IMG/VR virus record: IMGVR_UViG_3300035181_001974
Direction: 5' to 3' (one strand)
From: a virus
Length of the DNA stretch: 64,000 nucleotides
Every line of letters starts with the position of its first letter. The first letter of the stretch is position 1. Below the pieces are notes generated by a model. That model made no database searches. It was not told the DNA's origin and saw only the letters and a program-made list of their open reading frames with translations. A program made the translations under genes and the position numbers. Below are positions 863 to 55,140 of the stretch, one piece after another.

Positions 863-1105
863 ATGAAGCTGTCATTGTCGAGGCTGCGCAGCCTGATCCG
901 CGAGGCGATCTCTGCCTCTGAGGACTACATGAAAAAGGAGCGTATTCGCGAGGACTTGCAGGACCGCGTCATCGAGGCAGTGATGAAGGGTGACATCAAG
1001 GATGAAAAAGACCTTGTTGAATACTTCAAGACCGTCGATATGGCCGTCAAGGCACTGAAGATGATCCCTTATGATGTCTTCGTGAAATTGGCAAAGCAGA
1101 AGTAG
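863..1105 (+). CDS. small protein with N-terminal leader-family motif (MKLSLSRLRSLIREAI)
   Basis: Internal ATG of ORF 848..1105; N-terminus matches the L-R-x-L-I-R-E-x-I family. Confidence 0.45.
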   Translation: MKLSLSRLRSLIREAISASEDYMKKERIREDLQDRVIEAVMKGDIKDEKDLVEYFKTVDMAVKALKMIPYDVFVKLAKQK

Positions 1106-2694: not shown

Positions 2695-2925
2695 ATGGAT
2701 ATAACACAACACACGCAGCTCGAGCGCCTGACTGATCTCGATTATCGAGCTCAAATCATCCTTGATGCAGTCGATGATGAGTTGGCTGCCTGGTTGCTGC
2801 GCAACGATCGCCAAGGCGTCACCGTTTGGCAACACCTAGGCATGACTCCCGAGGAGTACGGCGTCTTTCTGTTCAACCCGTTGGCCTGGGCTCGAAACTA
2901 CGTCAAGCTTCTTCATGGGAAGTGA
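2695..2925 (+). CDS. hypothetical protein
   Basis: ORF starting MDITQHT; TGATG overlap with an upstream 26-codon ORF. Confidence 0.4.
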   Translation: MDITQHTQLERLTDLDYRAQIILDAVDDELAAWLLRNDRQGVTVWQHLGMTPEEYGVFLFNPLAWARNYVKLLHGK

Positions 2926-3146
2926 ATCGGCTTTTAGTTACCGAAAGGGCCATGGAGACGCCGAAGGAAGAGGCGGCGTACCCCCACTGGAATTCACGAT
3001 GAGGTCATGGACGTCATCAAGGTCCTCAAGATCCAGATTTACTCGATCGTCGTTTGCAAGGTCACTGGTTGCACCTGGAACACGGGAAACATTTCTTTGG
3101 CCCAACTCGAGAAGGAAGACCTCGAGAAGAAGGGATAGATCAACTG

Positions 3147-3638
3147 ATGCTAACGTTCTTTTTTGTTGCGTTGATGATGTTCGTTACGATGGTGTTCGGT
3201 CACGTGCTTCACTGGGCCATTCACCAGCGTTGGTCGGGTAGGCTCTACCGCGGGCACATGACGCACCACGTCAAGTTGTATCCACCCGAGGATTACATGT
3301 CGGACGTCTACCGCGATCCCGGCAAGGATTCGACGGTCTTTCCGTTCCTAGTTTTGGGCAGCCCGCTCGTGCTCGCGCCCCTGGCGCTCACGTTCCTTTC
3401 TCTGGTGGCCTGGCCCACTGCGTTGGCGATGGTGGGCGCCTCGTTGCTGATTGGATTTTTGAACGACTACATTCACGATTCGTTCCACGTGCGTAACCAT
3501 TGGCTCGCCCGCGTCTTGCCGGGATACAAGCGCATGAACGAACTGCACTACGTGCACCACTGCTACATGCAGACTAACTTCGGTATCTTCACCTTCGTCT
3601 GTGACAGGGCCTTCAGGACATTCCGCGGTACCTTGTGA
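3147..3638 (+). CDS. membrane fatty-acid hydroxylase / sterol desaturase superfamily protein
   Basis: Three His boxes (HVLHWAIH, HMTHH, HYVHH) between hydrophobic segments; start at internal Met of ORF 3054..3638. Confidence 0.5.
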   Translation: MLTFFFVALMMFVTMVFGHVLHWAIHQRWSGRLYRGHMTHHVKLYPPEDYMSDVYRDPGKDSTVFPFLVLGSPLVLAPLALTFLSLVAWPTALAMVGASLLIGFLNDYIHDSFHVRNHWLARVLPGYKRMNELHYVHHCYMQTNFGIFTFVCDRAFRTFRGTL

Positions 3639-4649: not shown

Positions 4650-5825
4650 ATGAACATGCAGATCGTCTATGCAGCCGAAGAGGCGCCGGCTTCGTTTGAG
4701 AAGTCCATCTTTTTGGCGGGGCCTTCTCCCCGTTCTGATGCGCATTTGAATTGGCGACCGGATGCCCTTAAGCTCCTCGAAGAGATGGGCTATGATGGCG
4801 TCGTCTTCGTGCCGCTGCCCCGCGATGGTAAGTGGAACTGCGGCTTCGATCATCAGGTCGAATGGGAAAAGAAACACCTCGACATGAGCGACGTGGTCGT
4901 CTTCTGGGTTCCTCGCGACATGCAGGTGGCACCTGCCCTGACGACGAACGTCGAGTTCGGTATGTACTATGATGCCGGAAAGACGGTCCTGGGTTACCCG
5001 CCCGAGGCCTATAACATGCGCTACCTGGCGCACCGTGCTCGTCTCGAGGGCGTCCCAGTAGAGAGCACGCTCCAGAACACGCTGCTGCAGGCACTCGAGA
5101 GGACGAAGCACAAGGCACTTCGATTCGGCGGGGAACGTTCAGTTCCACTGCATATCTGGCACCAGCCTGCGTTCCGCTCGTGGCACGCGGCCCAGAGGGC
5201 TGTTGGTAATCGTTTAGACGGCGCACAGTTGCTGTGGTCGTTCCGCATTGGGCCCAACAAAGCAGTGACCTTCTGCTATGCCTTGAAGGTTGATGTCTAT
5301 GTGGCGGCCGAGAAACGCAACAAGACCAACGAGTTCATCTTCTCGCGGCCGGACGTCTTCGTCGTGGTGGCGTATCACAGGCCGGACTCCGATGTCCTTG
5401 GGACGAGGGTCGCCCTTGTCAAGGAGTTCCGCAGCTCTGTTCGCAACAATGCAGGCTTCGTATATGAGGCTCCTGGTGGTAGTTCGCTGAAGTTGAGTCA
5501 GGATGCCCGCGTGGTGGCGGCCCACGAGTTGGAAGAAGAGATGGGCATCAATATTGATCCCACGCGGCTACGTTACGTGGGCTCGCGGCAGATGTGTGCT
5601 GCCCTGTCGACCCATCATGGCGTGGTCTACGCTGTTGAGTTGACAGCACTTGAAATGAATCGCCTGGAGGACGAACACAGTTCCGGCGTCACTCACGGGA
5701 TCGCCAACGATACTGAGTTGACTTACGTGGAGGTGTACGACCTCGATGACCTCGTCGCCGGCAAAGTCTTTATCGATTGGTCGATGCTCGGCATCATCTT
5801 GGCCGCCACCAGTGGCTCGGGCTGA
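4650..5825 (+). CDS. fusion protein with an N-terminal nucleoside 2-deoxyribosyltransferase/Rcl-like domain and a C-terminal Nudix-like domain
   Basis: IFLAGPSP...VVFVPLP...DVVVFWVPRD...EFGMYYDAGK is an NDT/DNPH1-like fold motif set; AHELEEEMGI is a Nudix-box-like motif. Confidence 0.5.
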   Translation: MNMQIVYAAEEAPASFEKSIFLAGPSPRSDAHLNWRPDALKLLEEMGYDGVVFVPLPRDGKWNCGFDHQVEWEKKHLDMSDVVVFWVPRDMQVAPALTTNVEFGMYYDAGKTVLGYPPEAYNMRYLAHRARLEGVPVESTLQNTLLQALERTKHKALRFGGERSVPLHIWHQPAFRSWHAAQRAVGNRLDGAQLLWSFRIGPNKAVTFCYALKVDVYVAAEKRNKTNEFIFSRPDVFVVVAYHRPDSDVLGTRVALVKEFRSSVRNNAGFVYEAPGGSSLKLSQDARVVAAHELEEEMGINIDPTRLRYVGSRQMCAALSTHHGVVYAVELTALEMNRLEDEHSSGVTHGIANDTELTYVEVYDLDDLVAGKVFIDWSMLGIILAATSGSG

Positions 5826-9427: not shown

Positions 9428-9757
9428 ATGAGGCTGCTCGAGGAATACGTTAGATCCGTGTTGGTTGAACTGCGTGTGGATCGCAATTTTGTCAAACGAC
9501 TTCGACGTGGAAGCGGACCGTCGCTGTCGTCGAAGGCCCGCCTCGTCGCCGATGCCTGGATTGCGGACTACGAGCGTGGCGGGCGACTGTTGCCAGGAAA
9601 GACAAAGAACGACATCAGGTCGTTCGCGGTTGCACAGTATTCCGCGCTCGTCTTCAAGACGGGCGACGATTCAAGGGCCCGCGCTGAGCTCAACCGGCTC
9701 ATCGACAGCAGGTTCTCTGCGTTTACAGGTGGCCTTGCCGGAAGGGACAAGAAATGA
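9428..9757 (+). CDS. hypothetical protein (weak leader-like N-terminus MRLLEEYVRSVLVEL)
   Basis: ORF; ATGA overlap with the downstream lipoprotein gene. Confidence 0.4.
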   Translation: MRLLEEYVRSVLVELRVDRNFVKRLRRGSGPSLSSKARLVADAWIADYERGGRLLPGKTKNDIRSFAVAQYSALVFKTGDDSRARAELNRLIDSRFSAFTGGLAGRDKK

Positions 9758-11842: not shown

Positions 11843-12757
11843 ATGAGATACCGCAACGACAACATGCTGCTGCACATCGCTTTGGGCGATGCCTACGCTG
11901 CCGGGTTCGAGTACATCAAGTTCCATCCCGATGAGCCGGAGTTCAAGGAAATCCGCGCCTTCCAGGGCTACATGCAGCACCCGGGTCACCAAGGCCTGCG
12001 TCCTGGCATGTACACTGACGATACGCAGATGTCGATCGCGGTGGCTGAGACCCTGATCAACAAGGGAACGTCCGCTAGCTACAACGACTGGGTCGCCGCC
12101 TGGTTCGACACCTTCAAGCGTGATCCACGCGATGGGTATTCCCGTGGGTTCCAGGCGATCCTAGAGTCGGTGAAGTCAGCTGACGAGCTCCGCGCCACAT
12201 TGCGGCCCAATTCGACGAAGAATGGCGCGGCCATGCGTGCCGTGCCCTTGGGCGTCATCAAAGACGTTGACAAGTTGCTGACAGTCGCAGCGTTTCAGGC
12301 GACCACCACGCACGCCTCTTACGAGGGCGTGCAGTCGGCGATGGCAATCGCCCTGATGTCGCATTACGCGCTCTACGATCATCGCAAACTTTCTGCAATG
12401 CAGGGGTGGTTGGAACCCCGCTTACCCTTGTTCGAAAAATTCCGTGTGCCTTGGGAGGGCCCGGTTCAAGGCAATGTCAAGCACTCGCCGTACGACGTGG
12501 GCATCAACACGGCCTGGGCCGTCAACACCTTGTTGATTCACAAGCGCTCTCTCCGTGAGATCATGGACCAGGTCATCGAGTGGGGCGGCGACACGGACTC
12601 TGTCGCGGCCATCGCATGGGGAATCGCGGGCGCCCGTCACCAGGACGAAGTGCTGCCTGAGTTCTTGGTCCACGATCTCGAGGCGAAAGGCAACTTGAAG
12701 TATGGTGTGCCCTTCCTCCAGGACTTGGGCAAGCGCTTGATGGAGTTGAAGATCTGA
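11843..12757 (+). CDS. ADP-ribosylglycohydrolase (ARH/DraG family)
   Basis: HIALGDAYAAGFEY, TDDTQMSIA and GGDTDSVAAIAWGIAGA motifs; start at internal Met with upstream purine-rich site. Confidence 0.75.
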   Translation: MRYRNDNMLLHIALGDAYAAGFEYIKFHPDEPEFKEIRAFQGYMQHPGHQGLRPGMYTDDTQMSIAVAETLINKGTSASYNDWVAAWFDTFKRDPRDGYSRGFQAILESVKSADELRATLRPNSTKNGAAMRAVPLGVIKDVDKLLTVAAFQATTTHASYEGVQSAMAIALMSHYALYDHRKLSAMQGWLEPRLPLFEKFRVPWEGPVQGNVKHSPYDVGINTAWAVNTLLIHKRSLREIMDQVIEWGGDTDSVAAIAWGIAGARHQDEVLPEFLVHDLEAKGNLKYGVPFLQDLGKRLMELKI

Positions 12758-13274: not shown

Positions 13275-14660
13275 ATGCGTAAGAAGAGCCGTGTCCCGGC
13301 GAGTGATCCCAGCCTCGAGAAAGAAAGGACGCTCGTGGAGGAATTGAAGGCCGCGTTCAACATCAGCAAGGTCAAGAAGACGATCGCCTTGGGAACCGAG
13401 GTGTTCACCGCTGTCGCGCCCTTCCTCGAGAAGCCCAATTGGTGGAACGGCGTCAAGGCTGCCTTCGCCATCGGCAAGGTGTTTGTTGACGAGGTTGAGC
13501 TGTGGAGCGAGGACTACTTCGCAGGTGACGAGTGGAACCTGCCCTACTCGCGGGACTTCAACCAGACGATCATCAAGGTGATCACCGGGTATCCGTATGA
13601 GACAATTCGAACGTCAGACGAGAACAACATCATCCGCATCGTCGATGTCGAAGGCATCAAGTGTGGGTACATCATGAACACCAAGTTGTCGGCCATCGAC
13701 AACATCTACGTCGAGACCGCGCGGTTGCAGGACGCTCGCAACGTTATCAAGCGCCTGCTTTGGGAACAGTTCAAGGACGCTAACCTGGTGATGCGCCAGA
13801 ACAAGCGTCTGGTGCTGCATGACGATGAATCCCGAGTGTTGTTCGAATTGGACGATGCTTTCCACTCGATGCCCTCGAGGCGGGCCTCAAACTACGCGGC
13901 CTATCTGAAGCGCTGCATCGATGCCAACGTCTCGCGGTCTGTCATGTTGTACGGGCCGCCGGGAACCGGCAAGTCGACGATGGCGCGAACCATCGTCACC
14001 GAGCTGAAGATGCGCTCTTTCCGCATCCGCGTGGAAGATGTGGCGGGCCTGGAGAGCTCGACGTTGTTCGAGGCCATCAGCATCTTCGAACCAGACGCGA
14101 TCATCTTGGATGACTTCGATCGGGCTCACGCTCAGGCGCAGCTCCTGGAGACGCTGGAGTTCTTCCAACGTCACGTGAAGTTGGTCATCGCGACGGTCAA
14201 CGACCGCAACTCGCTGGACGAGGCGATTCTGCGCCCCGGTCGCTTCGATGAGCTGTTGTTGATCAACGAGATGGAGCCTGAGGTCATCGAGGCCGTGCTG
14301 GGTCCCGAACTGAAGGACGCCATGAAAAGTGTCAAGGATTGGCCCATCGCCTTCATCCAGGAGTACGTCAAGCGCCGACGTTTCATGAGCGCCGAAGAGG
14401 CCGAGGCCTCAACCAAGGAGTTGGCCGACCGCGTCAAGCGTCTCGAGAAGTACAAGGATGTCGATGAGGTCGAGCGGATGCATCGCCTGACCCGCAAGCA
14501 CCTCAAGATGACGAAGGTCGAAATTGAAGAGGATGACGAGGAAGACGGGCCTGACACCGACCCGCCCGATCCCAACTACAACCTCGACAAGGATGTCGAA
14601 ATCGTGAAGGTCTCGCACGATGAGGTCGAAGAGGTTGAGCGCTCTTTCGATCGAAAGTGA
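13275..14660 (+). CDS. AAA+ ATPase (classic AAA domain) with N-terminal domain and acidic C-terminal tail
   Basis: Walker A LYGPPGTGKST, Walker B IILDDFD, and SRH/Arg-finger LRPGRFDELL motifs. Confidence 0.7.
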   Translation: MRKKSRVPASDPSLEKERTLVEELKAAFNISKVKKTIALGTEVFTAVAPFLEKPNWWNGVKAAFAIGKVFVDEVELWSEDYFAGDEWNLPYSRDFNQTIIKVITGYPYETIRTSDENNIIRIVDVEGIKCGYIMNTKLSAIDNIYVETARLQDARNVIKRLLWEQFKDANLVMRQNKRLVLHDDESRVLFELDDAFHSMPSRRASNYAAYLKRCIDANVSRSVMLYGPPGTGKSTMARTIVTELKMRSFRIRVEDVAGLESSTLFEAISIFEPDAIILDDFDRAHAQAQLLETLEFFQRHVKLVIATVNDRNSLDEAILRPGRFDELLLINEMEPEVIEAVLGPELKDAMKSVKDWPIAFIQEYVKRRRFMSAEEAEASTKELADRVKRLEKYKDVDEVERMHRLTRKHLKMTKVEIEEDDEEDGPDTDPPDPNYNLDKDVEIVKVSHDEVEEVERSFDRK

Positions 14661-14903
14661 AGTTCGACAAGGTGCACGCTGATCACAATGGCAAGCCCCC
14701 GTTCAGGACAATGCAACATTTGAGGCGCCTTCATGGCATGCAGAAAAAGCTCATGCCGCCGAAGCGTTGTCTCGTAGACACGTACTTATGTACGATGGTC
14801 TCGAGAAGTCATGTTTGCCACACACCGCCGACGCCTAGGGTCAAGAACCCGCTCAACACAGGGTGAACAAGTAACTGTGTCTTGCAGTGTCGTCTGCGAA
14901 TCA

Positions 14904-14945
14904 ATCAGCCCGGTGCCGTCTTTCGGCACCGGGCTGATTTGCATT
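14904..14945 (+). terminator. 15-bp perfect stem-loop terminator (ATCAGCCCGGTGCCG / CGGCACCGGGCTGAT) followed by TTTGCATTT
   Basis: Perfect inverted repeat read from the sequence, downstream of the AAA+ gene. Confidence 0.6.
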
Positions 14946-15110
14946 TCAGGCCCTGCGTCGACACGGGCGCGTGATAAGCTACACCGTGAGGATCACGGAC
15001 AGGCGAATATTCGTGCACTCTGGACACGGGCACTCATAGAAGTCGACAATATCGCCATTGCGAATGTGGATAAACTGAGCGCGAGACAAAAAGGGAGGTG
15101 ACAAGTAATT

Positions 15111-15392
15111 ATGAATGCTAGCATGGCGACTCGTAATCCCGGTGGCACAAAGGTGGACGTTGAAGGCACGGAGTTTCACCTCCACAAGTCTCAGCAGTCA
15201 ATCTTTGCAGGGATCATGCACAAGGTGATTGACTACACCGAACACCGGCTGCTCCGCTATGCCGACAAAGTCAAGGACCCGCAACAGAAGGCAACCCTGA
15301 AGGAGTTGATCACCAACTACAAGAAGGGCCTCGTCGCCATCGCCTGGCGCAAGGGACAGCCTGTCTGGTTGCCCGTCACAAAGGACGGTTGA
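15111..15392 (+). CDS. hypothetical protein upstream of GroEL (not GroES-like)
   Basis: 93-aa ORF with no GroES mobile-loop motif. Confidence 0.4.
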   Translation: MNASMATRNPGGTKVDVEGTEFHLHKSQQSIFAGIMHKVIDYTEHRLLRYADKVKDPQQKATLKELITNYKKGLVAIAWRKGQPVWLPVTKDG

Positions 15393-15429
15393 TGTGTACA
15401 GAGCCCTACCCACGCGGTAGAATGGCTGT

Positions 15430-17037
15430 ATGTTTCAAGACGTCGACACTCCCGCAGTCACCAAGGTTGTTTTCAAGGACGAGGCCCGCCGTAAGCTTTA
15501 CAACGGTCTCGAGATCGCCGCGGAGGCCGTCAGCTGCACGCTGGGCCCGAAGGGCAAAACGGTACTGATCCAGCGCAAGGGCGAGGCGCCGGTTGTCACC
15601 AAGGATGGCGTCACGGTCTCCAAGTCTGTCAAGCTGAAGGACCCCATCGCGAGGATGGGCGCAGAGCTGATCCGGGAGGCCGCATCGCAGACCAACGAGG
15701 TCGCCGGTGACGGCACGACAACAGCAACGGTGTTGACCCACGCCATGGTCAGGGAAGGCCTGAAACTGCTGGAGGCTGGCTTCTCGGCGAAGGAACTATG
15801 TGAAGGCATCGAGCTGGCACGGGCCACTGTCGATGAGGAGCTGATCCGCGCTGCGAAGCAGCTAACGACGGCGGAAGAGATCGCCCAGGTTGGCACTATC
15901 TCCGCGAACGGTGACGAGAAAATCGGGCAACTGATCGCTCAGGCCATGAGCAAGGTCGGTAAGGACGGTATTATCACTGTTGAGGACGCCAAAGGCATGA
16001 CGACCAGCCTCGACGTCGTCGAAGGTATGCAGTTCGACCGCGGCTACCTATCGCCGTACTTCGTCACCAATCCCGACAGGATGTTGGCGACCTACGAGGG
16101 CGCCCGAGTCCTGGTCACTGACAAGAAGATCAGCGTGTTGAAGGACCTAGTGCCAATCCTAGAGAAGGTTCTCCAGACGCGGACGCCACTGCTGATCATC
16201 GCAGAAGACGTGGAAGGTGAGGCGCTGCACGGCCTGGTTCTCAACCGTGTCCAGGGCAACCTGCCGATTGTGGCCGTTAAGGCACCGGGCTATGGGCAGC
16301 ACCGCGACGAGCTACTGCAGGACATCGCCACCCTGACGGGCGCAAAGCTCGTCTCTGCATCGCAGGGATTGAAGCTCGAGACACTGACGTTGGCTGACCT
16401 CGGCACCATCAAGCGTGTCACGGTCGACGCCAAGTCCACGACGCTGGTCGGCACCGGTACCACGAAGCCCGAGGTCGACGCTCACGTGGCCAACCTGCGA
16501 TCGCAGGTGGAAGACGTCACCAAGACGCAGGATGAGGTCACCAAGCTGAAGATGCGAATCGCCAAGTTGGCGAGCGGCGTCGCCATCATCCGCGTCGGTG
16601 GCGCGACGGAAGTCGAGATGGTGGAACGCAAGTACCGCATTGAAGACGCTCTCAATGCCACGAAGGCTGCCGCAGAAGAGGGCATCGTTCCCGGCGGCGG
16701 CATGGCACTGGCGGCTGCGAGCCAGCAGATTCCAGTCTCCACGTTCGGCGCCGGTGCCAAGGTGGTGCAGGCTGCATGTGTTGCGCCCCTGCGGCGCATC
16801 GTCACCAACGCGGGCGTCTCTCCCGACGTGGTCATCAATGAGCTGCACAAGTTGCACCTCAATGACGTCACCCTGGGCTACAACGCAGCTAAGGAGACCT
16901 ACGAGGACCTAATCGCCGCTGGCGTCGTGGATCCCGTCAAGGTGACTCGCACCGCCCTGAAGAACGCCGTCTCCGTCGCGGTGACGTTCCTGTCGCTCGA
17001 TGCGGTTGTGGTCGAGGAAGAGGAGAAGAAGGAATGA
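15430..17037 (+). CDS. groL: chaperonin GroEL (Hsp60)
   Basis: AGDGTTTATVL ATP-binding signature, full 535-aa length, GGM-like C-terminus replaced by EEEEKKE. Confidence 0.9.
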   Translation: MFQDVDTPAVTKVVFKDEARRKLYNGLEIAAEAVSCTLGPKGKTVLIQRKGEAPVVTKDGVTVSKSVKLKDPIARMGAELIREAASQTNEVAGDGTTTATVLTHAMVREGLKLLEAGFSAKELCEGIELARATVDEELIRAAKQLTTAEEIAQVGTISANGDEKIGQLIAQAMSKVGKDGIITVEDAKGMTTSLDVVEGMQFDRGYLSPYFVTNPDRMLATYEGARVLVTDKKISVLKDLVPILEKVLQTRTPLLIIAEDVEGEALHGLVLNRVQGNLPIVAVKAPGYGQHRDELLQDIATLTGAKLVSASQGLKLETLTLADLGTIKRVTVDAKSTTLVGTGTTKPEVDAHVANLRSQVEDVTKTQDEVTKLKMRIAKLASGVAIIRVGGATEVEMVERKYRIEDALNATKAAAEEGIVPGGGMALAAASQQIPVSTFGAGAKVVQAACVAPLRRIVTNAGVSPDVVINELHKLHLNDVTLGYNAAKETYEDLIAAGVVDPVKVTRTALKNAVSVAVTFLSLDAVVVEEEEKKE

Positions 17038-18088: not shown

Positions 18089-18358
18089 TCACCTGGTGGA
18101 GTCATTGGCCCTGGTCAGTTGGTTCAAGTGAACCCGCAGCAGCTTGTTGACCCTTGAGAACATCACGGTGACTGTGTTATCGTGAGTGTTAGACGCAGAA
18201 ACGTCGCTCCCGACCGAGACGACCAGGCCAGCGTCGCCGGGGTGCAGTTCATACCAGTTGATGAGGCCCAGCTCGGTCGGCGCCGCTGAGGGCGCCAAGT
18301 ACGAGGACCAGAACGTGAATGTGACGAGGTCACCTGGACGAATTGGAGGGGTGGACAC
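18089..18358 (-). CDS. small PGD-x-V family protein
   Basis: IRPGDLVTFTF...HPGDAGLVVSV (two motif copies). Confidence 0.4.
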   Translation of the reverse strand: MSTPPIRPGDLVTFTFWSSYLAPSAAPTELGLINWYELHPGDAGLVVSVGSDVSASNTHDNTVTVMFSRVNKLLRVHLNQLTRANDSTR

Positions 18359-21269: not shown

Positions 21270-22139
21270 TCAACGTGTCTTCTTGTCGGCAGCGAGGACC
21301 TTCTGCGCGTGCATTGTAACAACCTTGTAACGGCCAGCCAGGACCTTCTTGATGTCGTTGACCTCGGCGTGCCACTGTTGCAGCAGGTCGTCCATGCCGT
21401 TCTCCTCAAGTTCAGCCGCGACTGACCCCTGAACCTCATCGATACGCGCGGCGATTGCGGGCCAACTTACTGTCATGAACTCCTTGGCTGCGACCTTGAG
21501 GTCAGCGTACTGATAGACTGACCCGGCTGCCTCGCCATAGCCGAAGTCAGGGTCCAACATTGTGTTCAGCTCACCAGCCTTGTCGTTGAAGCCAGGTCCC
21601 TTGCGACCACCCCGTGCACGGTACTTGAACGATGAACCCGGGTCGATACGGGTGACTGAGCCGTCGTCCGACGATATCAGGTTGCCGGCGCCAGTACCGA
21701 TGACGTCGTAATTGGCCAGGAAAATGTCGACGTAGACGCCTGCCTCGAGCTGCTTCGCCAGCGCCTGAGGCTTGATGCGACCGAGCGCCATCTTGCCTTT
21801 GACAGCAGCCGTGGCAATACCGACCCGTGAGTTGTTAGGATCATAGACCAACTCAATACGGCTGGGAATCTTGACGCCCGGGTAGAGGGCATACAGCTTG
21901 TAGGCGAGGTACTCGCTCATGCACTGCATGCTAGGATCGGGGTCGCCTTCGTTCCAAAGGTCCTCTGCGATGTCAGAGAACTTGACGAAGAACTTCTCCT
22001 CCGAGCCCACCAATTTGGCCACGTTCATCTCATGGGTGGAGCCCAAGGTGCCCTTCATGCCCTTGAGCTTATCGATACCGACTTCGGTAACGAGTGCCTC
22101 GCGGATGGTGCGGCGTAGGTCTTTTACCTTTATCTTCAT
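21270..22139 (-). CDS. leader-family protein of 289 aa (MKIKVKDLRRTIREAL...), function unknown
   Basis: N-terminal family motif; large globular remainder. Confidence 0.5.
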   Translation of the reverse strand: MKIKVKDLRRTIREALVTEVGIDKLKGMKGTLGSTHEMNVAKLVGSEEKFFVKFSDIAEDLWNEGDPDPSMQCMSEYLAYKLYALYPGVKIPSRIELVYDPNNSRVGIATAAVKGKMALGRIKPQALAKQLEAGVYVDIFLANYDVIGTGAGNLISSDDGSVTRIDPGSSFKYRARGGRKGPGFNDKAGELNTMLDPDFGYGEAAGSVYQYADLKVAAKEFMTVSWPAIAARIDEVQGSVAAELEENGMDDLLQQWHAEVNDIKKVLAGRYKVVTMHAQKVLAADKKTR

Positions 22140-22149
22140 AGTGCGTTTA

Positions 22150-24495
22150 TCACTTCTTTTTCGTGGATTTATTGACGAGCTTCTTGGCGGCCACAGGTTT
22201 CTTCTTGGCGATCGGTTTCTTAGCCACTGACTTATTGGTCGCCACCTTCTTCTTTTTCTTCAACGTCTTGTGGCCAACACCGCCCTTTGGCAGGCCCGGC
22301 GTCGACTTGGTGATGGAGTTGATTGACCAGAAGACCTTTGAGACATTGATCTCGCCCAAGGCAATGACCTCGTCTTCAGTCTCGTACTCATCGAAGCCCT
22401 GAACGTTGTAGAGAGCGCCCGGTCCCATGCAGAACTTGTTTGGATTCTTCTTGACAGAGGCGACCATGATGATGGCGTAAGAACCGTAACCTCCATCGTT
22501 TGAAAACTTGACAGCACCTTGCGACGTTGATGACCAGCTAGTGGCCCCGCGACCTGACAACGGCGTGAACGTGAATGATGCGGCCTTGTTTCCCTTCGGT
22601 GGCAGATCATCTCCGGGCTTTAGCTTCAAGGCCTTGCGCAGATAATCTGCAGGAACGTTCATGCCACGGAGGACGTACGCCTGCTTAGGCTCGCGGAAGA
22701 CGCTAGCGTATTGACCCTTTTGCAGGAAGGACTGGATCAGCTTAGCGTGAGCGGGTGAGATCGGATCGTTGTTGACGAAGTGGGCATACAGGTCATTGTA
22801 CAACTTCTGCTCTTCCTTCGAGTTTGCCTCATACGGAACCTTTCCCTTGCGCTGGTCGGCAAAGGCCCACTGCTGTAGGGGCGCTGAGGGCTCTGCTTCA
22901 GGAGGCGCCTTCTTCAACAGCTCGGCGTTCTTCGCCTTCGTCTTTTTGATCCAACTGCTGGCGATCTTCTTGGCGCGCTGCAGCAGTTTTGGCCTGTCAC
23001 CTTCTGAGGTCAGTGCCCATGCTTTCAGGGCGCGTTTGAGATCATTGGGCTGTTTGGTGAAGTCATCACCTTTGGAGCGCATTGTCGAAATGATGCTGCC
23101 CCAAAAGTAGGTCTCGTTCGATGACTTCTCGGGTCCAAGCGTTTCAAACGTATCCACGATGTCATCATCGGGCATCGATCTGATGGTGTCCGACAACTTG
23201 ATCAGGCCATCGATCAACGCAATGAATTGAGGATCGTCCTTTGCCTTGAGCTGTTCCTTGACCTGAGCGAGATCGTCTCTCAGGTTCTTGATGTATTCAT
23301 GCAACTCAGAGGAGTTGATGATCTGCGAGTAGGCCATGACAGCTCGCAAGCGTGTCATTGACTTAGGTCCGACCTCGGGATCGATCTTGGTGATCTTGTC
23401 GATTTTGTCAGTAAAGTCGTTGGGAAAGTTCCAAATGCTCTTGCCGAAGTAGTCCCTTGAAACTTTGGCGCCGCCCAACTTGTGAGTGAAGCGAGCGTAA
23501 TCCGCGAGCGTCTGCAGGTCCTGCAGCTGTTCCTCGGTCAGTTCACCCTTCAGGGTCTGCACGTACCTGGCGGCTTTGGGAGTCTCGCGCTCGAGCATTG
23601 CCTTGATCTGCGTGATGACCTTGCGCGCTAGCCTGCTCGAGCGTTCTGCAATCCTTGCGTACTCTTCGAGAAACTCGTTTTCATCCTCGTTAAGATACGC
23701 ATTGAACGTGTTGATGGAATTGTAGTCCGACATACCAATGTGGTAGTCGTATGAGATTACGGTCTCATAGTAGGGCTTTAGGTCGCTCGGAACCTTCTCC
23801 TTCAGAAGGTCGAGCAATTCGCGGCCTGCGTCGACCACGTCCCAGGCGGCCTCGGCCTTCTTGGCCTCAAACCCAGCGATGATCTTGTCGAGCTTGTCGA
23901 TCTCGGACTCAGCGTCCTCGCTGTCCAGTTGTTCCAACCAGCGCGTGAAGTAACCTTTGGACGACTGCAACCTGAAGTGCTTTTCAGTCGGGTTGCTTTC
24001 AATCACTGCGCCCAGGGCGTAATTCAAGAAGTCACGAGCCGTGGCGTGGTTCTTGACGTTAAGCTGCAGGTCCTGCAGGTCTTCCCTGAGGTCACGCAGG
24101 ATCGGAATTGGGATGTGTGACAGTCGCTTCAGGATCGAGTTGAACGCAATGTCCTGAATGCTCTTGTCAGCGTGGCTTGGGACCGCCTCAAAGTTTGTGA
24201 TCTTTGAAAAGAGATCATCGAGCTGATCGTCTGACAGACTGCCCAAAGCAGCCTTCAGCTTAGTGAAGAGAACTTCACTGTAGTAACCGCTGTTGCTCAG
24301 CCCGCCAGAATCCACCCAGGCATCGAATGCGTCATGTAGCTTGGCCTTGAGGCCTGGGGGCGCATCGTCTAGCGAGTCGATGGCCTTGACGATAGCTGTC
24401 GCCTTGATCTGCTTGGCAAGCTGCTTAAAGCGATCAACGAAACCGTTGAAACTGATCTCCAACAGCAGTGCGACTTCTTGTACCTTCGCCCTCAT
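22150..24495 (-). CDS. large Arg-specific ADP-ribosyltransferase (Alt-like, R-S-E class) with ~600-aa helical N-terminal region and Lys-rich tail
   Basis: C-terminal YVLRGM (Arg), SWSSTSQG (STS) and EYETEDEV (E-x-E) motifs; paralog of 60872..62377. Confidence 0.65.
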   Translation of the reverse strand: MRAKVQEVALLLEISFNGFVDRFKQLAKQIKATAIVKAIDSLDDAPPGLKAKLHDAFDAWVDSGGLSNSGYYSEVLFTKLKAALGSLSDDQLDDLFSKITNFEAVPSHADKSIQDIAFNSILKRLSHIPIPILRDLREDLQDLQLNVKNHATARDFLNYALGAVIESNPTEKHFRLQSSKGYFTRWLEQLDSEDAESEIDKLDKIIAGFEAKKAEAAWDVVDAGRELLDLLKEKVPSDLKPYYETVISYDYHIGMSDYNSINTFNAYLNEDENEFLEEYARIAERSSRLARKVITQIKAMLERETPKAARYVQTLKGELTEEQLQDLQTLADYARFTHKLGGAKVSRDYFGKSIWNFPNDFTDKIDKITKIDPEVGPKSMTRLRAVMAYSQIINSSELHEYIKNLRDDLAQVKEQLKAKDDPQFIALIDGLIKLSDTIRSMPDDDIVDTFETLGPEKSSNETYFWGSIISTMRSKGDDFTKQPNDLKRALKAWALTSEGDRPKLLQRAKKIASSWIKKTKAKNAELLKKAPPEAEPSAPLQQWAFADQRKGKVPYEANSKEEQKLYNDLYAHFVNNDPISPAHAKLIQSFLQKGQYASVFREPKQAYVLRGMNVPADYLRKALKLKPGDDLPPKGNKAASFTFTPLSGRGATSWSSTSQGAVKFSNDGGYGSYAIIMVASVKKNPNKFCMGPGALYNVQGFDEYETEDEVIALGEINVSKVFWSINSITKSTPGLPKGGVGHKTLKKKKKVATNKSVAKKPIAKKKPVAAKKLVNKSTKKK

Positions 24496-24609: not shown

Positions 24610-25051
24610 TCATTTGCCGTAATCGTGGACGCCTTTGACGGTGACGATGCGGTCGGACTCATCTCCCAACACGAGAGCGTGAAGGTCATGACCGAACACT
24701 GCGCCGCCATCGATGCCCGCATGGACGCACACCACGTTATGGTCTGATACCTTGATGAGCAGAGGCAGTGAACGAAACCACTCGTAATGCTCTGACTGCA
24801 GCTGCGCTCGAGTCTTCACGTGACTGTCGGGCATGCTGGGCACGCGACCGATGCATTGAACGTGGTCCTCGTGATTTCCCAGCACGCCGGCGGGTGAATC
24901 CTGGACCTGCTCACGCTCGCGGACGAGATCGCAGCACTTGGCATTGTCGGGCCTGCGATTGACGTAGTCGCCCGGGAAGATTACTTGATCTGAGGTCGAT
25001 GGCCTCTCTCTAACATCCGTGAAGGTCGCCGATGACGATCGTCCTACTCAT
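24610..25051 (-). pseudogene. calcineurin-like metallophosphoesterase with a frameshift
   Basis: MSRTIVIGDLHG (motif I) ends at a TAG; GDYVNRRPDN ... GNHEDH ... VCVHAG motifs continue in the adjacent frame. Confidence 0.5.
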
Positions 25052-25686: not shown

Positions 25687-26001
25687 GTGCGGATAAAGCT
25701 AGGTGAACTAAGGCACATCATCAGGACAATCCTGATTGAGACCGGCGGTGGTTGGGCCTCACCGCCGCAGCCCGCGGCACGCAATGCCATGTCGCCCGAC
25801 ATCAACAACCGTGAGCAGCTAGGAAAGTTGCAGAGCGGCACGCCCATTGACGACGAGCTACCTGAACACCTAAGAGATCCACAGGAAGATCCCGAAGATT
25901 GCTGGGGTCCTGTGCCGCCGACGACTCCGGAACCCTATGTGTCTCAGGACCCGTTTGTTCGCGATTTCTCTCCGTTGCCGACGCCGCCAATCAGGCGGTG
26001 A
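25687..26001 (+). CDS. leader-family protein (GTG start; MRIKLGELRHIIRTIL) with Pro-rich disordered tail
   Basis: N-terminal family motif. Confidence 0.45.
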   Translation: MRIKLGELRHIIRTILIETGGGWASPPQPAARNAMSPDINNREQLGKLQSGTPIDDELPEHLRDPQEDPEDCWGPVPPTTPEPYVSQDPFVRDFSPLPTPPIRR

Positions 26002-26266
26002 CTTCGCTGGAACGCCGACGGACCAGCTCCTGGATGATGATGTCGATCTGAGCCCGCGAGGAACCCAACGTGACAAGGTCGATCAGTTCAATCTCACTAT
26101 AGTGAACCCACTTGGCCTTGAGGATCGACGGGCCAGTGACGGTGAAGATCGGGTCGATTCGAACCTTGGAACCCTTGTGTGCCAAAACTTGCCAAATGAC
26201 GCCCTCTCGGGCGCCGTTCCAGTGAACGTGGGTGACGAACTCGCCAATTTCAGGCTTGACCTTCAC
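25991..26266 (-). CDS. small PGD-x-V family protein
   Basis: IGEFVTHVHWNGAREGVIWQV. Confidence 0.4.
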   Translation of the reverse strand: MKVKPEIGEFVTHVHWNGAREGVIWQVLAHKGSKVRIDPIFTVTGPSILKAKWVHYSEIELIDLVTLGSSRAQIDIIIQELVRRRSSEVTA

Positions 26267-26751
26267 AGTTCGGCGCCTCCCTTACGGAGCAGGAACTTCA
26301 TCAGTTCGCCCAGTTCCACGTATTTGGCACCCAGGTCAGCAACCTCGACCTTCTTCAACTGTGAAACACCATGGCCGTAGTAGACCATGATGGTCTCACC
26401 CGCTCCCTTGGGCTTCTTGCCTCGAGGCGTCGGATAGAAGGTGAACAGCGGCTTGATACGAACGTAGCCGGCGACGTCGCAAGGCTTGATCTTGCGACCT
26501 TGTTCGTCCCACCTGCCGTGTTCGACGTGTTCGTACGTCTCAGTTTCTTGAGATTTGCTATTGTCCCGCCAGTTGAACTTTGTTCGAGTTCGTGTGGTCG
26601 TGCGCCGCGTGGTGTGCGGCGCTATGGGCGTCTGGTCGAAGACGATCTGATAGATACACCCACCGGTGTTATCGTTCTCAGACGCAAACGTAACGATGTC
26701 ACCGACGTTCAGTCCGAAGTCCACAATGCTCCTACGCGTGTTAGGCTGCAT
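26263..26751 (-). CDS. 162-aa protein, paralog of 28170..28670
   Basis: DFGLNVGDIVTF...GG-IYQIV and GYVRIKPLFTFYPTPRGKKPKG shared with its paralog. Confidence 0.5.
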   Translation of the reverse strand: MQPNTRRSIVDFGLNVGDIVTFASENDNTGGCIYQIVFDQTPIAPHTTRRTTTRTRTKFNWRDNSKSQETETYEHVEHGRWDEQGRKIKPCDVAGYVRIKPLFTFYPTPRGKKPKGAGETIMVYYGHGVSQLKKVEVADLGAKYVELGELMKFLLRKGGAEL

Positions 26752-26754
26752 GGT

Positions 26755-27114
26755 TCATGGTAACCCGGAAGAGCCTGAGTTTGCACCGTACTTGTAGTCG
26801 AGGTAGAAGACGAGGTCACTTGGCTGCGACATCGGTTGAACGGAAACGAGCTTCTTGATCAACGATGGCTGAAATGTCTGTCGAATGATGGGGGACACCA
26901 TCGAAGAGAAGTCGTTTTCCTTGACGTACTTCGTCCACAGGACAGAGGCCCGCTTCTTGTCGTTGGCGATGATGATGCCGAACCAACCTTCAACATCACG
27001 ACGAATCACCAGCGTCCCGGGCGTGGCCCACTTGTAACCCAGAAACTTCTTTGATGAACGCTCGGGCGGCCGGTCGGCAGGCCAGAGTTCGCTGATTGGA
27101 AGGTCGCTGATCAT
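26755..27114 (-). CDS. small PGD-x-V family protein
   Basis: ATPGTLVIRRDVEGWFGIIIA...SVLWT. Confidence 0.4.
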   Translation of the reverse strand: MISDLPISELWPADRPPERSSKKFLGYKWATPGTLVIRRDVEGWFGIIIANDKKRASVLWTKYVKENDFSSMVSPIIRQTFQPSLIKKLVSVQPMSQPSDLVFYLDYKYGANSGSSGLP

Positions 27115-27401
27115 GACTTGTTCGCAATCATCAAGTCCCGCAAGATTTCTGCATCAATGCCGTCAGCGACGTCCTTTAACATCATCTGGATCATCTTTTC
27201 CACCTTCATCCGTGAACGATCTGGATCGACCGTCCACAGGACCGAGGCGGCGTTTCCCTTGATGGCGACGACCATGCCGTTGGACTTGATGTCGTTCTTG
27301 TGCCTGACCACGTCGCCGGGATAACGAATGGTCAGCTCGGAGCGCTGCGAGGCAAAGGGCTCGCGGAGTTCCAGGTCATCAAGGAGAAATTCGCTGATCA
27401 T
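27111..27401 (-). CDS. small PGD-x-V family protein
   Basis: RYPGDVVRHKNDIKSNGMVVAIKGNAASVLWT. Confidence 0.4.
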   Translation of the reverse strand: MISEFLLDDLELREPFASQRSELTIRYPGDVVRHKNDIKSNGMVVAIKGNAASVLWTVDPDRSRMKVEKMIQMMLKDVADGIDAEILRDLMIANKS

Positions 27402-27576
27402 TGGAAGGTCTTCCTTCGCCAGGGATCTTCGTACATCCAGAACCTGCCTGAGTCGTCCTCACGGTACCTGACGATCTCGATCTGAGACTCGAGATCGCGG
27501 TCGATCGTGACCGAGATGTCACTGACATTGGGGAAATCGTGAGCGATCTCCTCGTTTCCATCATCAGGAAATTACG

Positions 27577-27912
27577 CTAAGCGTCAATCTCGTGATGGGC
27601 CTTGATGTCCTGTGCCAGCTCGGGCGACCACCGAACCTTGAGTTTACGTGTTTGAGCCTGGATCTGGGTCGACGTTACTTGGACCTGAGGCCTGATTGGA
27701 CACTTGCTCCACAGGACTGTGACGAACTTTGAATACGTCTCAACAGAGATGATCAGACCTTCGCCACCGCCAGTCTGCAGCAGCCCCTTGACCATGTCAC
27801 CGGGACGTGGCATGAACTGTTTGCTAAAGTCGCACCTGCACTGTGTGCTGTCAAACGCTTTGCCATCGCGGATGACGAGCGTCAGGTTAGTCCAAAGTTC
27901 ATTTGTCAACAT
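27577..27912 (-). CDS. small PGD-x-V family protein
   Basis: MPRPGDMVKGLLQTGGGEGLIISV...VTVLW. Confidence 0.4.
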   Translation of the reverse strand: MLTNELWTNLTLVIRDGKAFDSTQCRCDFSKQFMPRPGDMVKGLLQTGGGEGLIISVETYSKFVTVLWSKCPIRPQVQVTSTQIQAQTRKLKVRWSPELAQDIKAHHEIDA

Positions 27913-28163
27913 GGTCGTCCCTCGTAATCATCCAGCGTGGGCGTCTCCTCGACGGTCGACAATTCCCAGTCCTCCAACGAATTATTGTCGAGAACCAAGG
28001 CCTGCCACCGCCTGGGCTTATGCAGTTGTCCGTTTCGATTGTAGCCGGGCGCAGTCGAATACCAGCCGATCAACAACACGATGACTTGAGCCTGGCGACG
28101 AAGGCACCAGTAGGTCATCATGGTCCCGGGCGGGTACTTTCTCTGTATTTCCCTGCGACTCAT
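27906..28163 (-). CDS. small protein (possible PGD-x-V family member)
   Basis: KYPPGTMMTYW...VIVLLIGW. Confidence 0.3.
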   Translation of the reverse strand: MSRREIQRKYPPGTMMTYWCLRRQAQVIVLLIGWYSTAPGYNRNGQLHKPRRWQALVLDNNSLEDWELSTVEETPTLDDYEGRPC

Positions 28164-28169
28164 CTCTCC

Positions 28170-28670
28170 TCATTCGCCCTGCAACCTCCTCAACTCTTGG
28201 TTGATGAAGAGCTGGAATGATGCGAACTGCGTGGCCATCGCCATCAAGTCGATCTTCTTGACCTGTCGCTTGATCTTGCTGTAGGAGATCAACTTGCGCC
28301 CGGCCTTGGCGCCCGTCGGATAGGCCATGAAGGAAAAGACCGGCATGACCTCAATACAACCCCTGAGCCGCGTCGGGTTGATGAGATAGCCTTTGGCATC
28401 GACCCAACCATCGCGGCGCTTCTCTTTTCGGGATTTCCGCGACCATCGCGGAGAATAGTCGGTGTACTGACCCCAGCGAGCATCGCTGCGAGGTGGGCTG
28501 TCCTTCAAGATGCGATAGATGTTACCTCCTGAGTTCAGGCCATGGCCCTCGACAGTCACAAGGTCGCCTTCAGCCAGACCGAAGTCGCTGAGTTTAACTG
28601 CCATAGACTCGCGCCAGTTGGGTAGATCAGTGATCAGTGTACCGATTTCGGTCATGGTATCATCATACAC
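28170..28670 (-). CDS. 166-aa protein, paralog of 26263..26751
   Basis: DFGLAEGDLVTV...GGNIYRIL and GCIEVMPVFSFMAYPTGAKAGRK shared with its paralog. Confidence 0.5.
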   Translation of the reverse strand: MYDDTMTEIGTLITDLPNWRESMAVKLSDFGLAEGDLVTVEGHGLNSGGNIYRILKDSPPRSDARWGQYTDYSPRWSRKSRKEKRRDGWVDAKGYLINPTRLRGCIEVMPVFSFMAYPTGAKAGRKLISYSKIKRQVKKIDLMAMATQFASFQLFINQELRRLQGE

Positions 28671-54218: not shown

Positions 54219-55140
54219 CGATGAGACGAGCGCTTCTTGATCATGTGGTCGGGCCATACTTAGAGGCATGTCTTTTCCCGTGGTACATCATCTGCTCTGG
54301 AACGGCTGCTGGAACCCACCTTGTGTTCTGTCGGGCTCTCTACTGACGGTGCCCTGGAAGCTGCAGGGCCTCAGGTTGGGCATCCCTGAAGGTGCCATTC
54401 CCTCAGGTTCTGTGACTCATCGCGGCCGCGATTTCGTCTCGGCCTCGTGGTCCCGCGATCCTGAGACCCCTCCTGCCATCATCGCGGTCGAAAATGGCCT
54501 GCTGACGGGTTCGATGCTCTACGTCATGGGATCCGGCTCGCGGGGTCGATGAAAGTTCACCATCTCGCGCGGTGATATGATGGTGGGCACGCGGGTTTCA
54601 TGGAATCATCAAGGACTGCGCTCACTCACTGGCCTGCCCGATGAGAGACGTATTCGCAGTGAAAGGCTCAGTTGAGCTATTCACGTGGATGACCGGTCCG
54701 TATTGACGCGCTTAGGGTCTTGTACACCTATAAGGGCAAGCCCATGCATCCCATGGCGCCAACCCTCGTGAGAGACCCTCGGAAATTAGTCGAAAAGTCG
54801 ATTGATTGGTCACCTAACTGCGCGGTGATAAATTCGTATGTTCAGGCCTGTTGTACTCTACCTGCGCCGCGTCCATCTGCACTTTCGTCCTACATCCATT
54901 TGATGTTAAGGGCAAACGCATCAATGGCAACGACGGCCTCTATGACCTAGAGGGCTTCGGTGAGTACGAAGATGAGGCATAATGCATCGCCATCGGCCCC
55001 ATCGCGCTTAGCGGCATTAAGTTGCAAGAGAAGCTCAAAGATGGTTCCCCATGGAACTCATCTTTATACACGAGATGCTGTGTTGGTCACTGAGACGCGC
55101 TGCAGTGAATATTGACATCAACCTGAGGTATTATTTTGAA

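What the first reader, a model, noticed from the sequence alone, without database searches (positions are those of the whole stretch)
22150..24495. Two large Alt-like Arg-specific ADP-ribosyltransferase paralogs
ORFs 22150..24495 (781 aa) and 60872..62377 (501 aa) share a C-terminal ~200-aa domain carrying the R, S-T-S and E-x-E triad (YVLRGM / IYRGM; SWSSTS / SWSTSKS; ETE / EKE). That triad defines R-S-E class arginine ADP-ribosyltransferases. The long helical N-terminal regions and overall size recall T4 Alt, which is packaged in the capsid and injected to modify host RNA polymerase. Two divergent copies suggest two host targets or two stages of infection.
Basis: partly seen in the sequence, partly recalled or inferred. 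Interest (0 to 1): 0.7.

Follow-up and report, generated by a model that had tools for sequence, protein, structure and literature searches.

The report
Mod-like phage ADP-ribosyltransferase paralogs

Summary

The domain defines a large metagenomic family: 1,082 clusters at 50% identity, found here on phage-like and IMG/VR viral contigs. Across 159 domain copies, Arg610, Ser653-Trp654 and Glu707-x-Glu709 are 96-100% conserved. They sit where the R, S and ExE residues lie in R-S-E ARTs.

Homology to Alt is not supported. T4 Alt hits Pfam PF03496 at 6e-36, whereas no family matched more than 2 of 105 members scanned and none listed was an ART family. Profile comparison gives only noise against Alt but an in-register, above-shuffle match to ModA/ModB.

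W781 is an all-helical 530-aa N-terminus, then the ART domain, then a lysine-rich tail. W501 probably starts at 60935 (480 aa).

The family expands readily: tandem arrays of up to five copies, fused double domains, and a decayed third copy in this window. A short N-terminal peptide shared with unrelated proteins may be a capsid-targeting signal, but this is untested.

Verdict: a new R-S-ExE ART family, probably arginine-specific; activity, targets and delivery are inferred.

The parts
22150..24495 (-). W781: 781-aa CDS. N-terminal leader, ~520-aa helical region, ART domain, Lys-rich tail.
   Evidence: ORF. Start confirmed by conserved N-termini of homologues P0027, P0034 and P0036. Full-length AF2 model, pLDDT 72.7.
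24457..24495 (-). W781 N-terminal peptide MRAKVQEVALLLE (residues 1-13), ending hydrophobic-x-Glu. Candidate targeting peptide or propeptide.
   Evidence: Conserved as M..KVQE..LLLEM in P0027, P0034, P0036 and P0016. Related 'MKIRLSELRRLIRE' leaders are enriched at family N-termini. The function is inferred, not shown.
22906..24456 (-). W781 all-helical N-terminal region (residues 14-530), no known domain.
   Evidence: DSSP of the AF2 model. No credible Pfam hit (only Tex_N, 14.3 bits against a 32-bit cutoff) and none to the ART domain in PHROGs. Homologous only to a few long family members.
22315..22905 (-). W781 ART-fold catalytic domain (residues 531-727).
22666..22668 (-). Arg610 codon (YVLRGM), in strand beta-1. 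Predicted NAD-binding Arg of the R-S-E triad.
   Evidence: 100% conserved in 159 domains. Aligns with ModB R73, which is catalytically essential (PMC10468400).
22534..22539 (-). Ser653-Trp654 codons, at the end of a beta-strand followed by a helix. Equivalent of the 'STS' motif.
   Evidence: S 96% and W 100% conserved. Secondary structure. Aligns with ModB S99.
22369..22377 (-). Glu707-Asp708-Glu709 codons (ExE), at the start of a beta-strand after an ~18-residue ARTT-like loop.
   Evidence: E707 96% (Q 3%) and E709 99% conserved. Aligns with ModB E171-Q-E173.
22153..22293 (-). W781 Lys-rich disordered C-terminal tail (residues 735-781).
   Evidence: pLDDT below 50 for residues 739-781. Similar tails in long members P0027, P0039, P0043, P0049, P0055 and P0093.
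60872..62377 (+). W501: longest ORF 501 aa; probable true start ATG 60935 (480 aa).
61805..62365 (+). W501 ART-fold domain (residues 312-498 in 501-aa numbering). R389 at 62036-62038, S427 at 62150-62152, E480-K-E482 at 62309-62317.
   Evidence: Family HMM 243.8 bits. Residue coordinates.
21270..22139 (-). 289-aa gene 10 nt downstream of W781, same strand, carrying the leader MKIKVKDLRRTIRE. Probable co-transcribed partner.
   Evidence: ORF and junction sequence. The W781-type ART plus this gene are adjacent in related contigs L011/L012 (49% identity). It is homologous to an internal domain of virion-associated polyvalent 'ADP-ribosyltransferase toxin' proteins.
54908..55027 (+). Relic of a third family copy (last ~40 residues of the domain). 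A TAA stop at 54980-54982 sits where the catalytic Glu codon should be.
   Evidence: Read-through translation scores 25.3 bits against the family HMM. BLASTP E=4e-7 to W501 and 3e-6 to W781.

Best explanation
The family was found here on phage-like and viral metagenomic contigs, several from very large phages. Its only detectable sequence relatives are T4 ModA/ModB, and that link is remote.

Proposed mechanism (inferred, not shown). The domain binds NAD+ using Arg610 in beta-1 and the Ser653-Trp654 motif. Glu709 stabilises the oxocarbenium-like transition state. Glu707, two residues upstream in an ARTT-like loop, directs ADP-ribose onto arginine side chains of host proteins. As with ModB, NAD-capped RNA could also be a donor.

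The divergent, non-homologous N-terminal helical regions would set target choice or localisation. So would the Lys-rich tail, which occurs in W781 but not in W501. Frequent duplication, fusion and decay of copies mark the family as a fast-evolving host-takeover or counter-defence effector.

Shown: paralogy, fold, residue conservation, family size, distribution across the sampled contigs, and gene neighbourhoods. Inferred: enzymatic activity, arginine specificity, host targets, timing and delivery.
For: Paralogy: 44% identity, E=1e-45.

Conservation over 159 domain copies: R610 100%, S653 96%, W654 100%, E707 96% (Q 3%), E709 99%. These residues lie in beta-1, at a strand end followed by a helix, and at a strand start after an 18-residue loop.

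Mod kinship: hhalign against a ModA/ModB profile scores 30.8 (P=5e-4, 167 columns). The aligned pairs are R610/R73, S653/S99, E707-E709/E171-E173 and E556, E562/E30, E36. Thirty column-shuffled controls scored 9-17.

Published rules: ModB R73 is catalytically essential (PMC10468400), and R-S-ExE marks arginine specificity (PMC3102197).

Family size: 1,082 clusters at E<=1e-3.

Context: phage-like and IMG/VR viral contigs. One locus has five tandem copies abutting a TARG1-like macro domain gene. Another has NAD synthase about 1 kb upstream.
Against: No biochemical data exist for any member.

No sequence library recognises the domain. The ART assignment therefore rests on a predicted structure and on motifs.

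Foldseek against the PDB is weak: best E=0.02, TM about 0.3. The hhalign probability for Mod is only 32%.

The canonical S-T-S is replaced by S-W. I could not superpose coordinates to confirm that R, S and E cluster in a pocket.

The macro and NadE neighbours each occur in only one of about ten loci.
Confidence: 0.7

Rival explanations
1. One reading: the proteins are Alt-like. That is, they are relatives or functional equivalents of T4 Alt that are packaged in the capsid through an N-terminal targeting peptide, trimmed by the prohead protease, and injected with the DNA to modify host RNA polymerase at once.
For: Architecture: a long N-terminal region plus a C-terminal ART domain, as in Alt, whose ART domain lies at residues 374-614 of 682.

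A short N-terminal amphipathic peptide ending hydrophobic-x-Glu is enriched at family N-termini: 12% against 0.9% of internal windows. The same peptide heads unrelated proteins in these phages, like the T4 capsid-targeting sequence shared by the internal proteins and Alt (PMC9026906).

The basic Lys-rich tail resembles DNA-associated internal proteins.

The adjacent 289-aa gene shares a domain with proteins annotated as virion-associated polyvalent ART proteins.

A small ORF at 26755..27114 hits the gp23 N-terminal region.
Against: There is no homology to Alt. Pfam PF03496 is not among the families listed for the 105 members scanned, against 6e-36 for Alt itself. BLASTP finds nothing. hhalign scores within shuffles.

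No MuF or portal family appears in the Pfam listing for the 105 members. Neither gene was seen next to head or packaging genes in this window. Those are the contexts that mark packaged phage ARTs in PMC9503650. Instead W501 lies in a conserved block of small genes.

One leader-bearing neighbour in L015 has a PAP2 domain, which belongs to a superfamily usually found in membrane proteins.

No virion proteome exists for this lineage.
Confidence: 0.3
2. The domain is catalytically active, but protein arginine is not its substrate. It may ADP-ribosylate nucleic acid, or act mainly as an NADase or on NAD-derived defence signals.

For: Lys-rich tails in the W781 subfamily suggest nucleic-acid binding.

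Its nearest relative ModB accepts NAD-capped RNA (PMC10468400).

NAD synthase and macro domain neighbours would also fit NAD-centred conflicts with host defence.
Against: The first Glu of ExE is 96% conserved, and this residue is the published determinant of arginine specificity (PMC3102197).

No His is invariant across the family, and no R-H-R-R tetrad of the Tpt1 type is apparent.

Confidence: 0.15
3. The domain is a non-catalytic ART-fold module, either a pseudo-enzyme or a structural or binding domain.
For: No sequence library recognises it. The canonical STS is altered to S-W. Pseudo-ART folds exist, for example the TASOR pseudo-PARP among the Foldseek hits.
Against: Near-invariance of exactly the catalytic positions R, S and E-x-E across 159 copies whose remaining columns are far more variable (mean column identity of the family alignments 7-8%). 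The one decayed copy in the window has lost the catalytic Glu codon together with the rest of the gene. That is the pattern expected if intact copies are under selection for catalysis.
Confidence: 0.04

Closest known systems
T4 ModA / ModB (Mod family of the R-S-E clade; Pfam PF26816 in the precomputed annotations)
   Same: Phage-encoded. A roughly 200-aa domain with helices preceding beta-1. The motifs R-G in beta-1, S followed by an A..F helix, and E-x-E all align in register. Two N-terminal glutamates (E556, E562) align with ModB E30 and E36, which are identical in ModA and ModB. Many family members are stand-alone proteins of about 200-230 aa, like ModA and ModB.
   Different: Similarity is detectable only profile-to-profile (probability 32%). 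Members P0002-P0008 carry no precomputed Pfam domain, whereas all nine Mod relatives carry PF26816. S-W replaces the serine context of Mod. Many members have long helical N-terminal extensions, Lys-rich tails, tandem domains and an N-terminal leader. tblastn with two members found no match in 50,697 GenBank phage records.
T4 Alt / VIP2 family (Pfam PF03496, ADPrib_exo_Tox)
   Same: R-S-ExE triad, ART fold, and a large protein with a C-terminal catalytic domain after a long N-terminal region. Possibly, but untested, an N-terminal peptide for capsid targeting.
   Different: No detectable sequence relationship. No MuF or portal family in the Pfam listing, and no T4-like alt context seen. The N-terminal regions are not homologous.
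Bacterial R-S-E toxins with solved structures (Vis, cholera/LT, pertussis S1, C3, Tre1/TreX)
   Different: 8-18% identity. No secretion or translocation domains. Found here on phage-like contigs. Two pattern-limited scans of 185,579 species genomes found no relative.
KptA/Tpt1 RNA 2'-phosphotransferase (H-H-h clade)
   Different: The family has Arg, not His, in beta-1 and no invariant His. ExE is present.

Membership tests
ADP-ribosyltransferase (ART) superfamily | Split beta-sheet ART fold | tested here: met
R-S-E (cholera-toxin-like, ARTC) clade | Arg in beta-1, Ser at the end of the next core strand, catalytic Glu at the start of the strand after the ARTT loop | tested here: met
   R610 100%, S653 96%, E709 99% over 159 domains. 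Their positions in the DSSP strands are as expected. They are in register with ModB. The three-dimensional clustering of the residues could not be checked.
Arginine-specific ARTs (R-S-ExE) | Glu two residues before the catalytic Glu | tested here: met
   E707 is 96% conserved, with Q in 3%. The rule comes from PMC3102197.
Arginine-specific ARTs (R-S-ExE) | NAD+-dependent transfer of ADP-ribose to arginine | not testable with these tools
   Needs biochemistry.
T4 Alt / VIP2 family (PF03496) | Match to the family profile | tested here: not met
   T4 Alt scores 124 bits, E=5.8e-36. For the 105 family members scanned, no Pfam family matched more than two and none of the 25 listed is an ART family. 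hhalign against an Alt plus fHe-Yen8-01 profile scores 14.1, within the shuffle range of 8.9-17.9.
T4 Alt / VIP2 family (PF03496) | Packaged in the capsid, N-terminal propeptide cleaved, injected | not testable with these tools
   Only indirect hints: the leader peptide ending h-x-E, the basic tail, and a neighbour related to virion-associated polyvalent proteins.
T4 ModA/ModB family (PF26816) | Match to the family profile | tested here: inconclusive
   hhalign scores 30.8, probability 32%, P=5e-4, clearly above 30 shuffles (9-17) and in register. However, family members carry no precomputed PF26816 hit, whereas all nine Mod relatives do. The local Pfam copy lacks that model, since ModA and ModB themselves gave no hit.
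KptA/Tpt1 (H-H-h clade) | Conserved His residues of the H-H-h signature | tested here: not met
   The invariant columns of 148 sequences are E556, E562, Y596, R610, W654 and E709. There is no invariant or near-invariant His.
Polyvalent or MuF-fused packaged phage ARTs (PMC9503650) | Fusion to MuF, portal or other effector domains, or location beside head or packaging genes | tested here: not met
   None of the 25 Pfam families listed for the 105 members is a MuF or portal family. In this window neither gene was seen next to head or packaging genes, though only part of the window's ORFs were scanned.

The most novel reading that the evidence does not exclude
The short N-terminal peptide (consensus MKIRLSELRRLIRE; variant M..KVQE..LLLE in W781) may be a sorting signal shared by many unrelated proteins of this uncultured giant-phage lineage. 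Carriers would include ARTs, the 289-aa protein, a PAP2-domain protein and several small proteins. It would be an analogue of the T4 capsid-targeting sequence. It would mark a whole, rapidly diversifying arsenal of proteins that are packaged, cleaved after the Glu and injected, with this new ART family as its most expanded member.
Probability: 0.3. Interest if true: 0.7.

Novelty: new variant of a known kind. Interest (0 to 1): 0.45.

Why it matters
Phage ADP-ribosyltransferases reprogram host transcription and translation, and ModB revealed a new chemistry, protein RNAylation. This domain defines more than 1,000 sequence clusters (at 50% identity) that current libraries do not recognise and that two tblastn queries did not find in sequenced cultured phages. 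NAD-based host takeover in environmental giant phages may therefore be under-counted.

The family offers a natural series for studying how ART target choice evolves: stand-alone domains, fused double domains, tandem arrays and long-tailed forms. If the shared N-terminal peptide is a packaging signal, it would give a sequence handle for predicting injected proteins in phages that cannot yet be cultured.

Tried and rejected
- Sequence-library searches of both proteins, of the nine-sequence domain alignment and of 105-148 family members found no ART family. These covered Pfam, PHROGs, NCBIfam and PDB sequences. The profile hits in the PDB were designed helical bundles that matched the helical N-termini, which is noise.
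- The first homologue search with the full 781-aa protein returned only a fragment of itself, possibly because the Lys-rich tail dominated the word candidates. Searching with the domain alignment worked.
- tblastn against 50,697 GenBank phage records found nothing for W781, for P0129 or for the leader-bearing 122-aa ORF. Megablast of 20000-27000 also found nothing.
- A second, degenerate ART domain inside the W781 N-terminus was looked for, because P0010 has two domains. None was found.
- MAFFT misaligned Alt with ModA/ModB. I therefore compared the family with the Mod and Alt profiles separately.
- The afdb50 fold library was unavailable.
- Two pattern-limited scans of species genomes found no relative.
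- I guessed by eye that the 289-aa neighbour is kinase-like. There is no support from Pfam, NCBIfam or PDB sequences, so I do not claim it.
- GroEL was tried as a lineage marker. It is uninformative: about 49% identity to many records in the collection.
- The regions upstream of leader-bearing genes share no visible DNA similarity, so the leader does not look like a shared regulatory cassette.
- The sigma-70 promoter and terminator scan of 20500-25500 was at chance level.
Full report
OBSERVATION. The two ORFs exist as described. The first is 22150..24495 on the minus strand (781 aa, here W781). The second is 60872..62377 on the plus strand (501 aa as the longest ORF, here W501). BLASTP aligns only their C-terminal ~210 residues, at 44% identity with E=1e-45. 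The N-terminal parts are unrelated. W501 most likely begins at ATG 60935, giving 480 aa. That codon has an AAGAGGG Shine-Dalgarno-like sequence about 6 nt upstream, the GTG has none, and an independent metagenomic gene call (P0011) starts there. The W781 start is confirmed by conserved N-termini in homologues.

WHAT THE DOMAIN IS. No sequence library recognises it. Pfam, PHROGs, NCBIfam and PDB sequences gave no ART hit for the two proteins, the nine-sequence domain alignment, or 105-148 family members. An AlphaFold2 model of W781 residues 531-735, built on nine homologues, is confident (pLDDT 82.7, pTM 0.80).

CATALYTIC RESIDUES. An exhaustive HMM search of 1.84 billion representatives finds 1,082 clusters at E<=1e-3 and 378 at E<=1e-30. 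Over 159 domain copies from the best 150 proteins plus the window, conservation is R610 100%, G611 99%, S653 96%, W654 100%, E707 96% (Q 3%) and E709 99%. Family-specific residues R549, E556, E562, Y596, N684 and Y696 are also conserved.

In the models R610 sits in the first core strand. S653-W654 sits at the end of a strand that is followed by a helix. E709 opens a strand after an 18-residue loop carrying Y696 and E707. This is the layout of the R, S-T-S and ARTT-loop ExE elements of R-S-E ARTs.

The aligned ExE of W781 is E-D-E (707-709), not E-T-E. The conserved serine belongs to an S-W pair, and the downstream S-T-S is variable. Glu at position -2 is the published marker of arginine specificity (PMC3102197). 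Arginine specificity here is therefore an inference from that rule.

ALT OR MOD? T4 Alt matches Pfam PF03496 at 5.8e-36 over residues 374-614. Among the 105 family members scanned, no Pfam family matched more than two and none of the 25 listed is an ART family. BLASTP of W781 against Alt finds nothing. The family profile against an Alt-type profile scores 14.1, inside the range of column-shuffled controls, 8.9-17.9.

Against a ModA/ModB profile (11 sequences) the family scores 30.8, with P=5e-4, probability 32% and 167 aligned columns. Thirty shuffles scored 9-17. The register is consistent: R610/R73, S653/S99 and E707-x-E709/E171-x-E173. The two invariant N-terminal glutamates E556 and E562 align with E30 and E36, which ModA and ModB share. 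ModB R73 is required for activity (PMC10468400).

The family is thus a distant relative of the Mod family, not of Alt. It is not a plain member of the Mod family either. The Mod relatives all carry precomputed PF26816, and the family members carry none.

ARCHITECTURE AND CONTEXT. The full-length W781 model is entirely helical from residue 1 to 530. The ART domain follows, then a disordered Lys-rich tail at 739-781. Similar tails occur in the other 680-800-aa members. About a quarter of the sampled family is the bare domain, roughly 200-250 aa.

The window looks like part of a very large phage genome.
- Contigs of 0.2-1 Mb carry P0011.
- The window encodes GroEL, AAA ATPases, glycosyltransferases, HNH endonucleases and a tRNA cluster.
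- Eight IMG/VR viral contigs carry the family.
- tblastn with two members found no match in 50,697 GenBank phage records.
- Two pattern-limited scans of 185,579 species genomes found no relative.

W501 sits in a conserved block (EamA-like gene, two small genes, HNH, small gene, ART) shared with related contigs. W781 lies in a long leftward gene string. It is followed after 10 nt by a 289-aa gene, and this pair recurs in L011/L012 together with the vault-like protein, GroEL and the AAA ATPase.

PARALOG DYNAMICS. Two copies are not special to this genome.
- L014 has five copies in tandem, one of them truncated. L016 and L018 each show two matches (one of those in L016 is partial).
- P0009, P0010, P0042 and P0053 fuse two domains in one protein.
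- The window itself holds a relic of a third copy at 54908..55027, with TAA in place of the catalytic Glu codon.

In L014 the array abuts a TARG1/SCO6735-like macro domain gene (E=1e-35 to 1e-40 to solved macrodomains). In L015 an NAD synthase gene lies about 1 kb upstream. These are weak but coherent links to NAD and ADP-ribose biology. Each is seen in only one locus.

DELIVERY. There is no direct evidence for packaging. Some observations hint at it.
- A short amphipathic N-terminal peptide ending hydrophobic-x-Glu (MKIRLSELRRLIRE; M..KVQE..LLLE in the W781 subfamily) is enriched at family N-termini. A strict pattern occurs in 12% of N-termini against 0.9% of internal windows.
- The same peptide heads unrelated ORFs in the window and in related loci, with no visible DNA-level similarity upstream. 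This recalls the T4 capsid-targeting sequence shared by the internal proteins and Alt, and cleavage after Glu by gp21 (PMC9026906).
- The 289-aa neighbour is homologous to an internal domain of proteins annotated as virion-associated polyvalent 'ADP-ribosyltransferase toxin' proteins.

Other observations count against it. None of the Pfam families listed for the 105 members is a MuF or portal family. Neither gene was seen next to head or packaging genes in this window. One leader-bearing neighbour has a PAP2 domain. I put the Alt-like delivery mode at about 0.3.

VERDICT. The enzyme-class interpretation (R-S-ExE ART, probably arginine-specific) is supported by fold and conservation, but it is not tested biochemically. 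Homology to Alt is not supported; the nearest known kin are ModA and ModB. This is a new, large, phage-associated ART family with its own features: an S-W motif, a leader peptide, Lys-rich tails and tandem expansion. Because ARTs are already known to be common in large phages (PMC9503650), interest is moderate. The shared leader peptide is the most novel lead.

Noticed in passing
window 22098..22139(-), 59871..59912(+), 863..904(+), 9428..9469(+), 36935..36976(+), 35997..36038(-); also L015 7947.. and ~8641.., L016 992.., 3354.., 4449.., L017 7959.., 2910..3398(-): A short N-terminal peptide of the type M[KR]I[KR]L.ELRR.IRE heads several unrelated ORFs of this phage and its relatives, as well as many ART-family members. 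Conservation is at the peptide level; the upstream DNA shows no visible similarity. It may be a sorting or capsid-targeting signal.
   Followed up: partly
window 21270..22139 (-): A 289-aa gene lies 10 nt downstream of W781, and the pair is conserved in L011/L012. It is homologous (about 28-37% identity) to an internal domain of unknown function in large proteins of ~86-95-kb enterobacterial, Pseudomonas and Aeromonas phages. In Yersinia phage fHe-Yen8-01 the matching protein is annotated as a particle-associated 'ADP-ribosyltransferase toxin'. There the matching domain lies upstream of a PF03496 ART domain. There is no Pfam, NCBIfam or PDB sequence hit.
   Followed up: partly
window 54908..55027 (+): Decayed fragment of a third ART-family copy, covering the last ~40 residues of the domain (25.3 bits when read through). 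A TAA stop at 54980..54982 replaces the catalytic Glu codon.
   Followed up: yes
window 24610..25051 (-): Broken metallophosphatase gene directly upstream of W781. It reads MSRTIVIGDLHGC and then hits a stop. A later piece carries GNHE and VHAG motifs (Pfam Metallophos E=0.0045) in a different frame. It is either a pseudogene or an assembly error. An intact Metallophos gene lies about 4 kb upstream of the ART gene in L001/L002.
   Followed up: partly
window 30710..33289 (-): An 859-aa protein with Major Vault Protein shoulder and repeat domains plus an SPFH/Band 7 domain (MVP_shoulder E=3e-28). It is 70% identical in related contigs L011/L012 with conserved synteny. A vault-like protein encoded by a phage is unusual.
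   Followed up: no
window 26755..27114 (-): In this 119-aa ORF, residues 69-113 match the N-terminal region (profile positions 4-48) of the T4 major capsid protein Gp23 family (E=4.5e-7). That region is the part removed as a propeptide in T4.
   Followed up: no
window 25991..28670 (-), also 18089..18358, 34857..35249, 35796..36038: A run of small ORFs that look paralogous by eye, sharing a 'PGD.V / GD.VT' motif. ORFs 26263..26751 and 28170..28670 both match the same gene in L011/L012.
   Followed up: no
L014 7644..11854, and 11849..12346 (-): Five tandem ART-family genes, one truncated and interrupted by a PD-(D/E)XK nuclease gene. They are followed convergently by a TARG1/SCO6735-like macro domain gene (E=1.5e-40 to BT1257, 6.5e-35 to 5e3b).
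   Followed up: yes
L015 6243..6998 (+): An NAD synthase (NadE) gene (Pfam E=1.5e-51) lies about 1 kb upstream of the stand-alone ART gene P0129. The gene after the ART encodes a leader-bearing protein with a PAP2 domain.
   Followed up: partly
window 63486..63979 (+): tRNA cluster: tRNA-Ile(GAT) and two tRNA-Tyr(GTA), downstream of W501.
   Followed up: no
window 4650..5825 (+), 13275..17037 (+): A 391-aa protein with a nucleoside 2-deoxyribosyltransferase-like N-terminal domain. Separately, an AAA ATPase, a small ORF and a GroEL chaperonin (PHROG 5725, E=7e-149), conserved at 57-68% identity in L011/L012.
   Followed up: no
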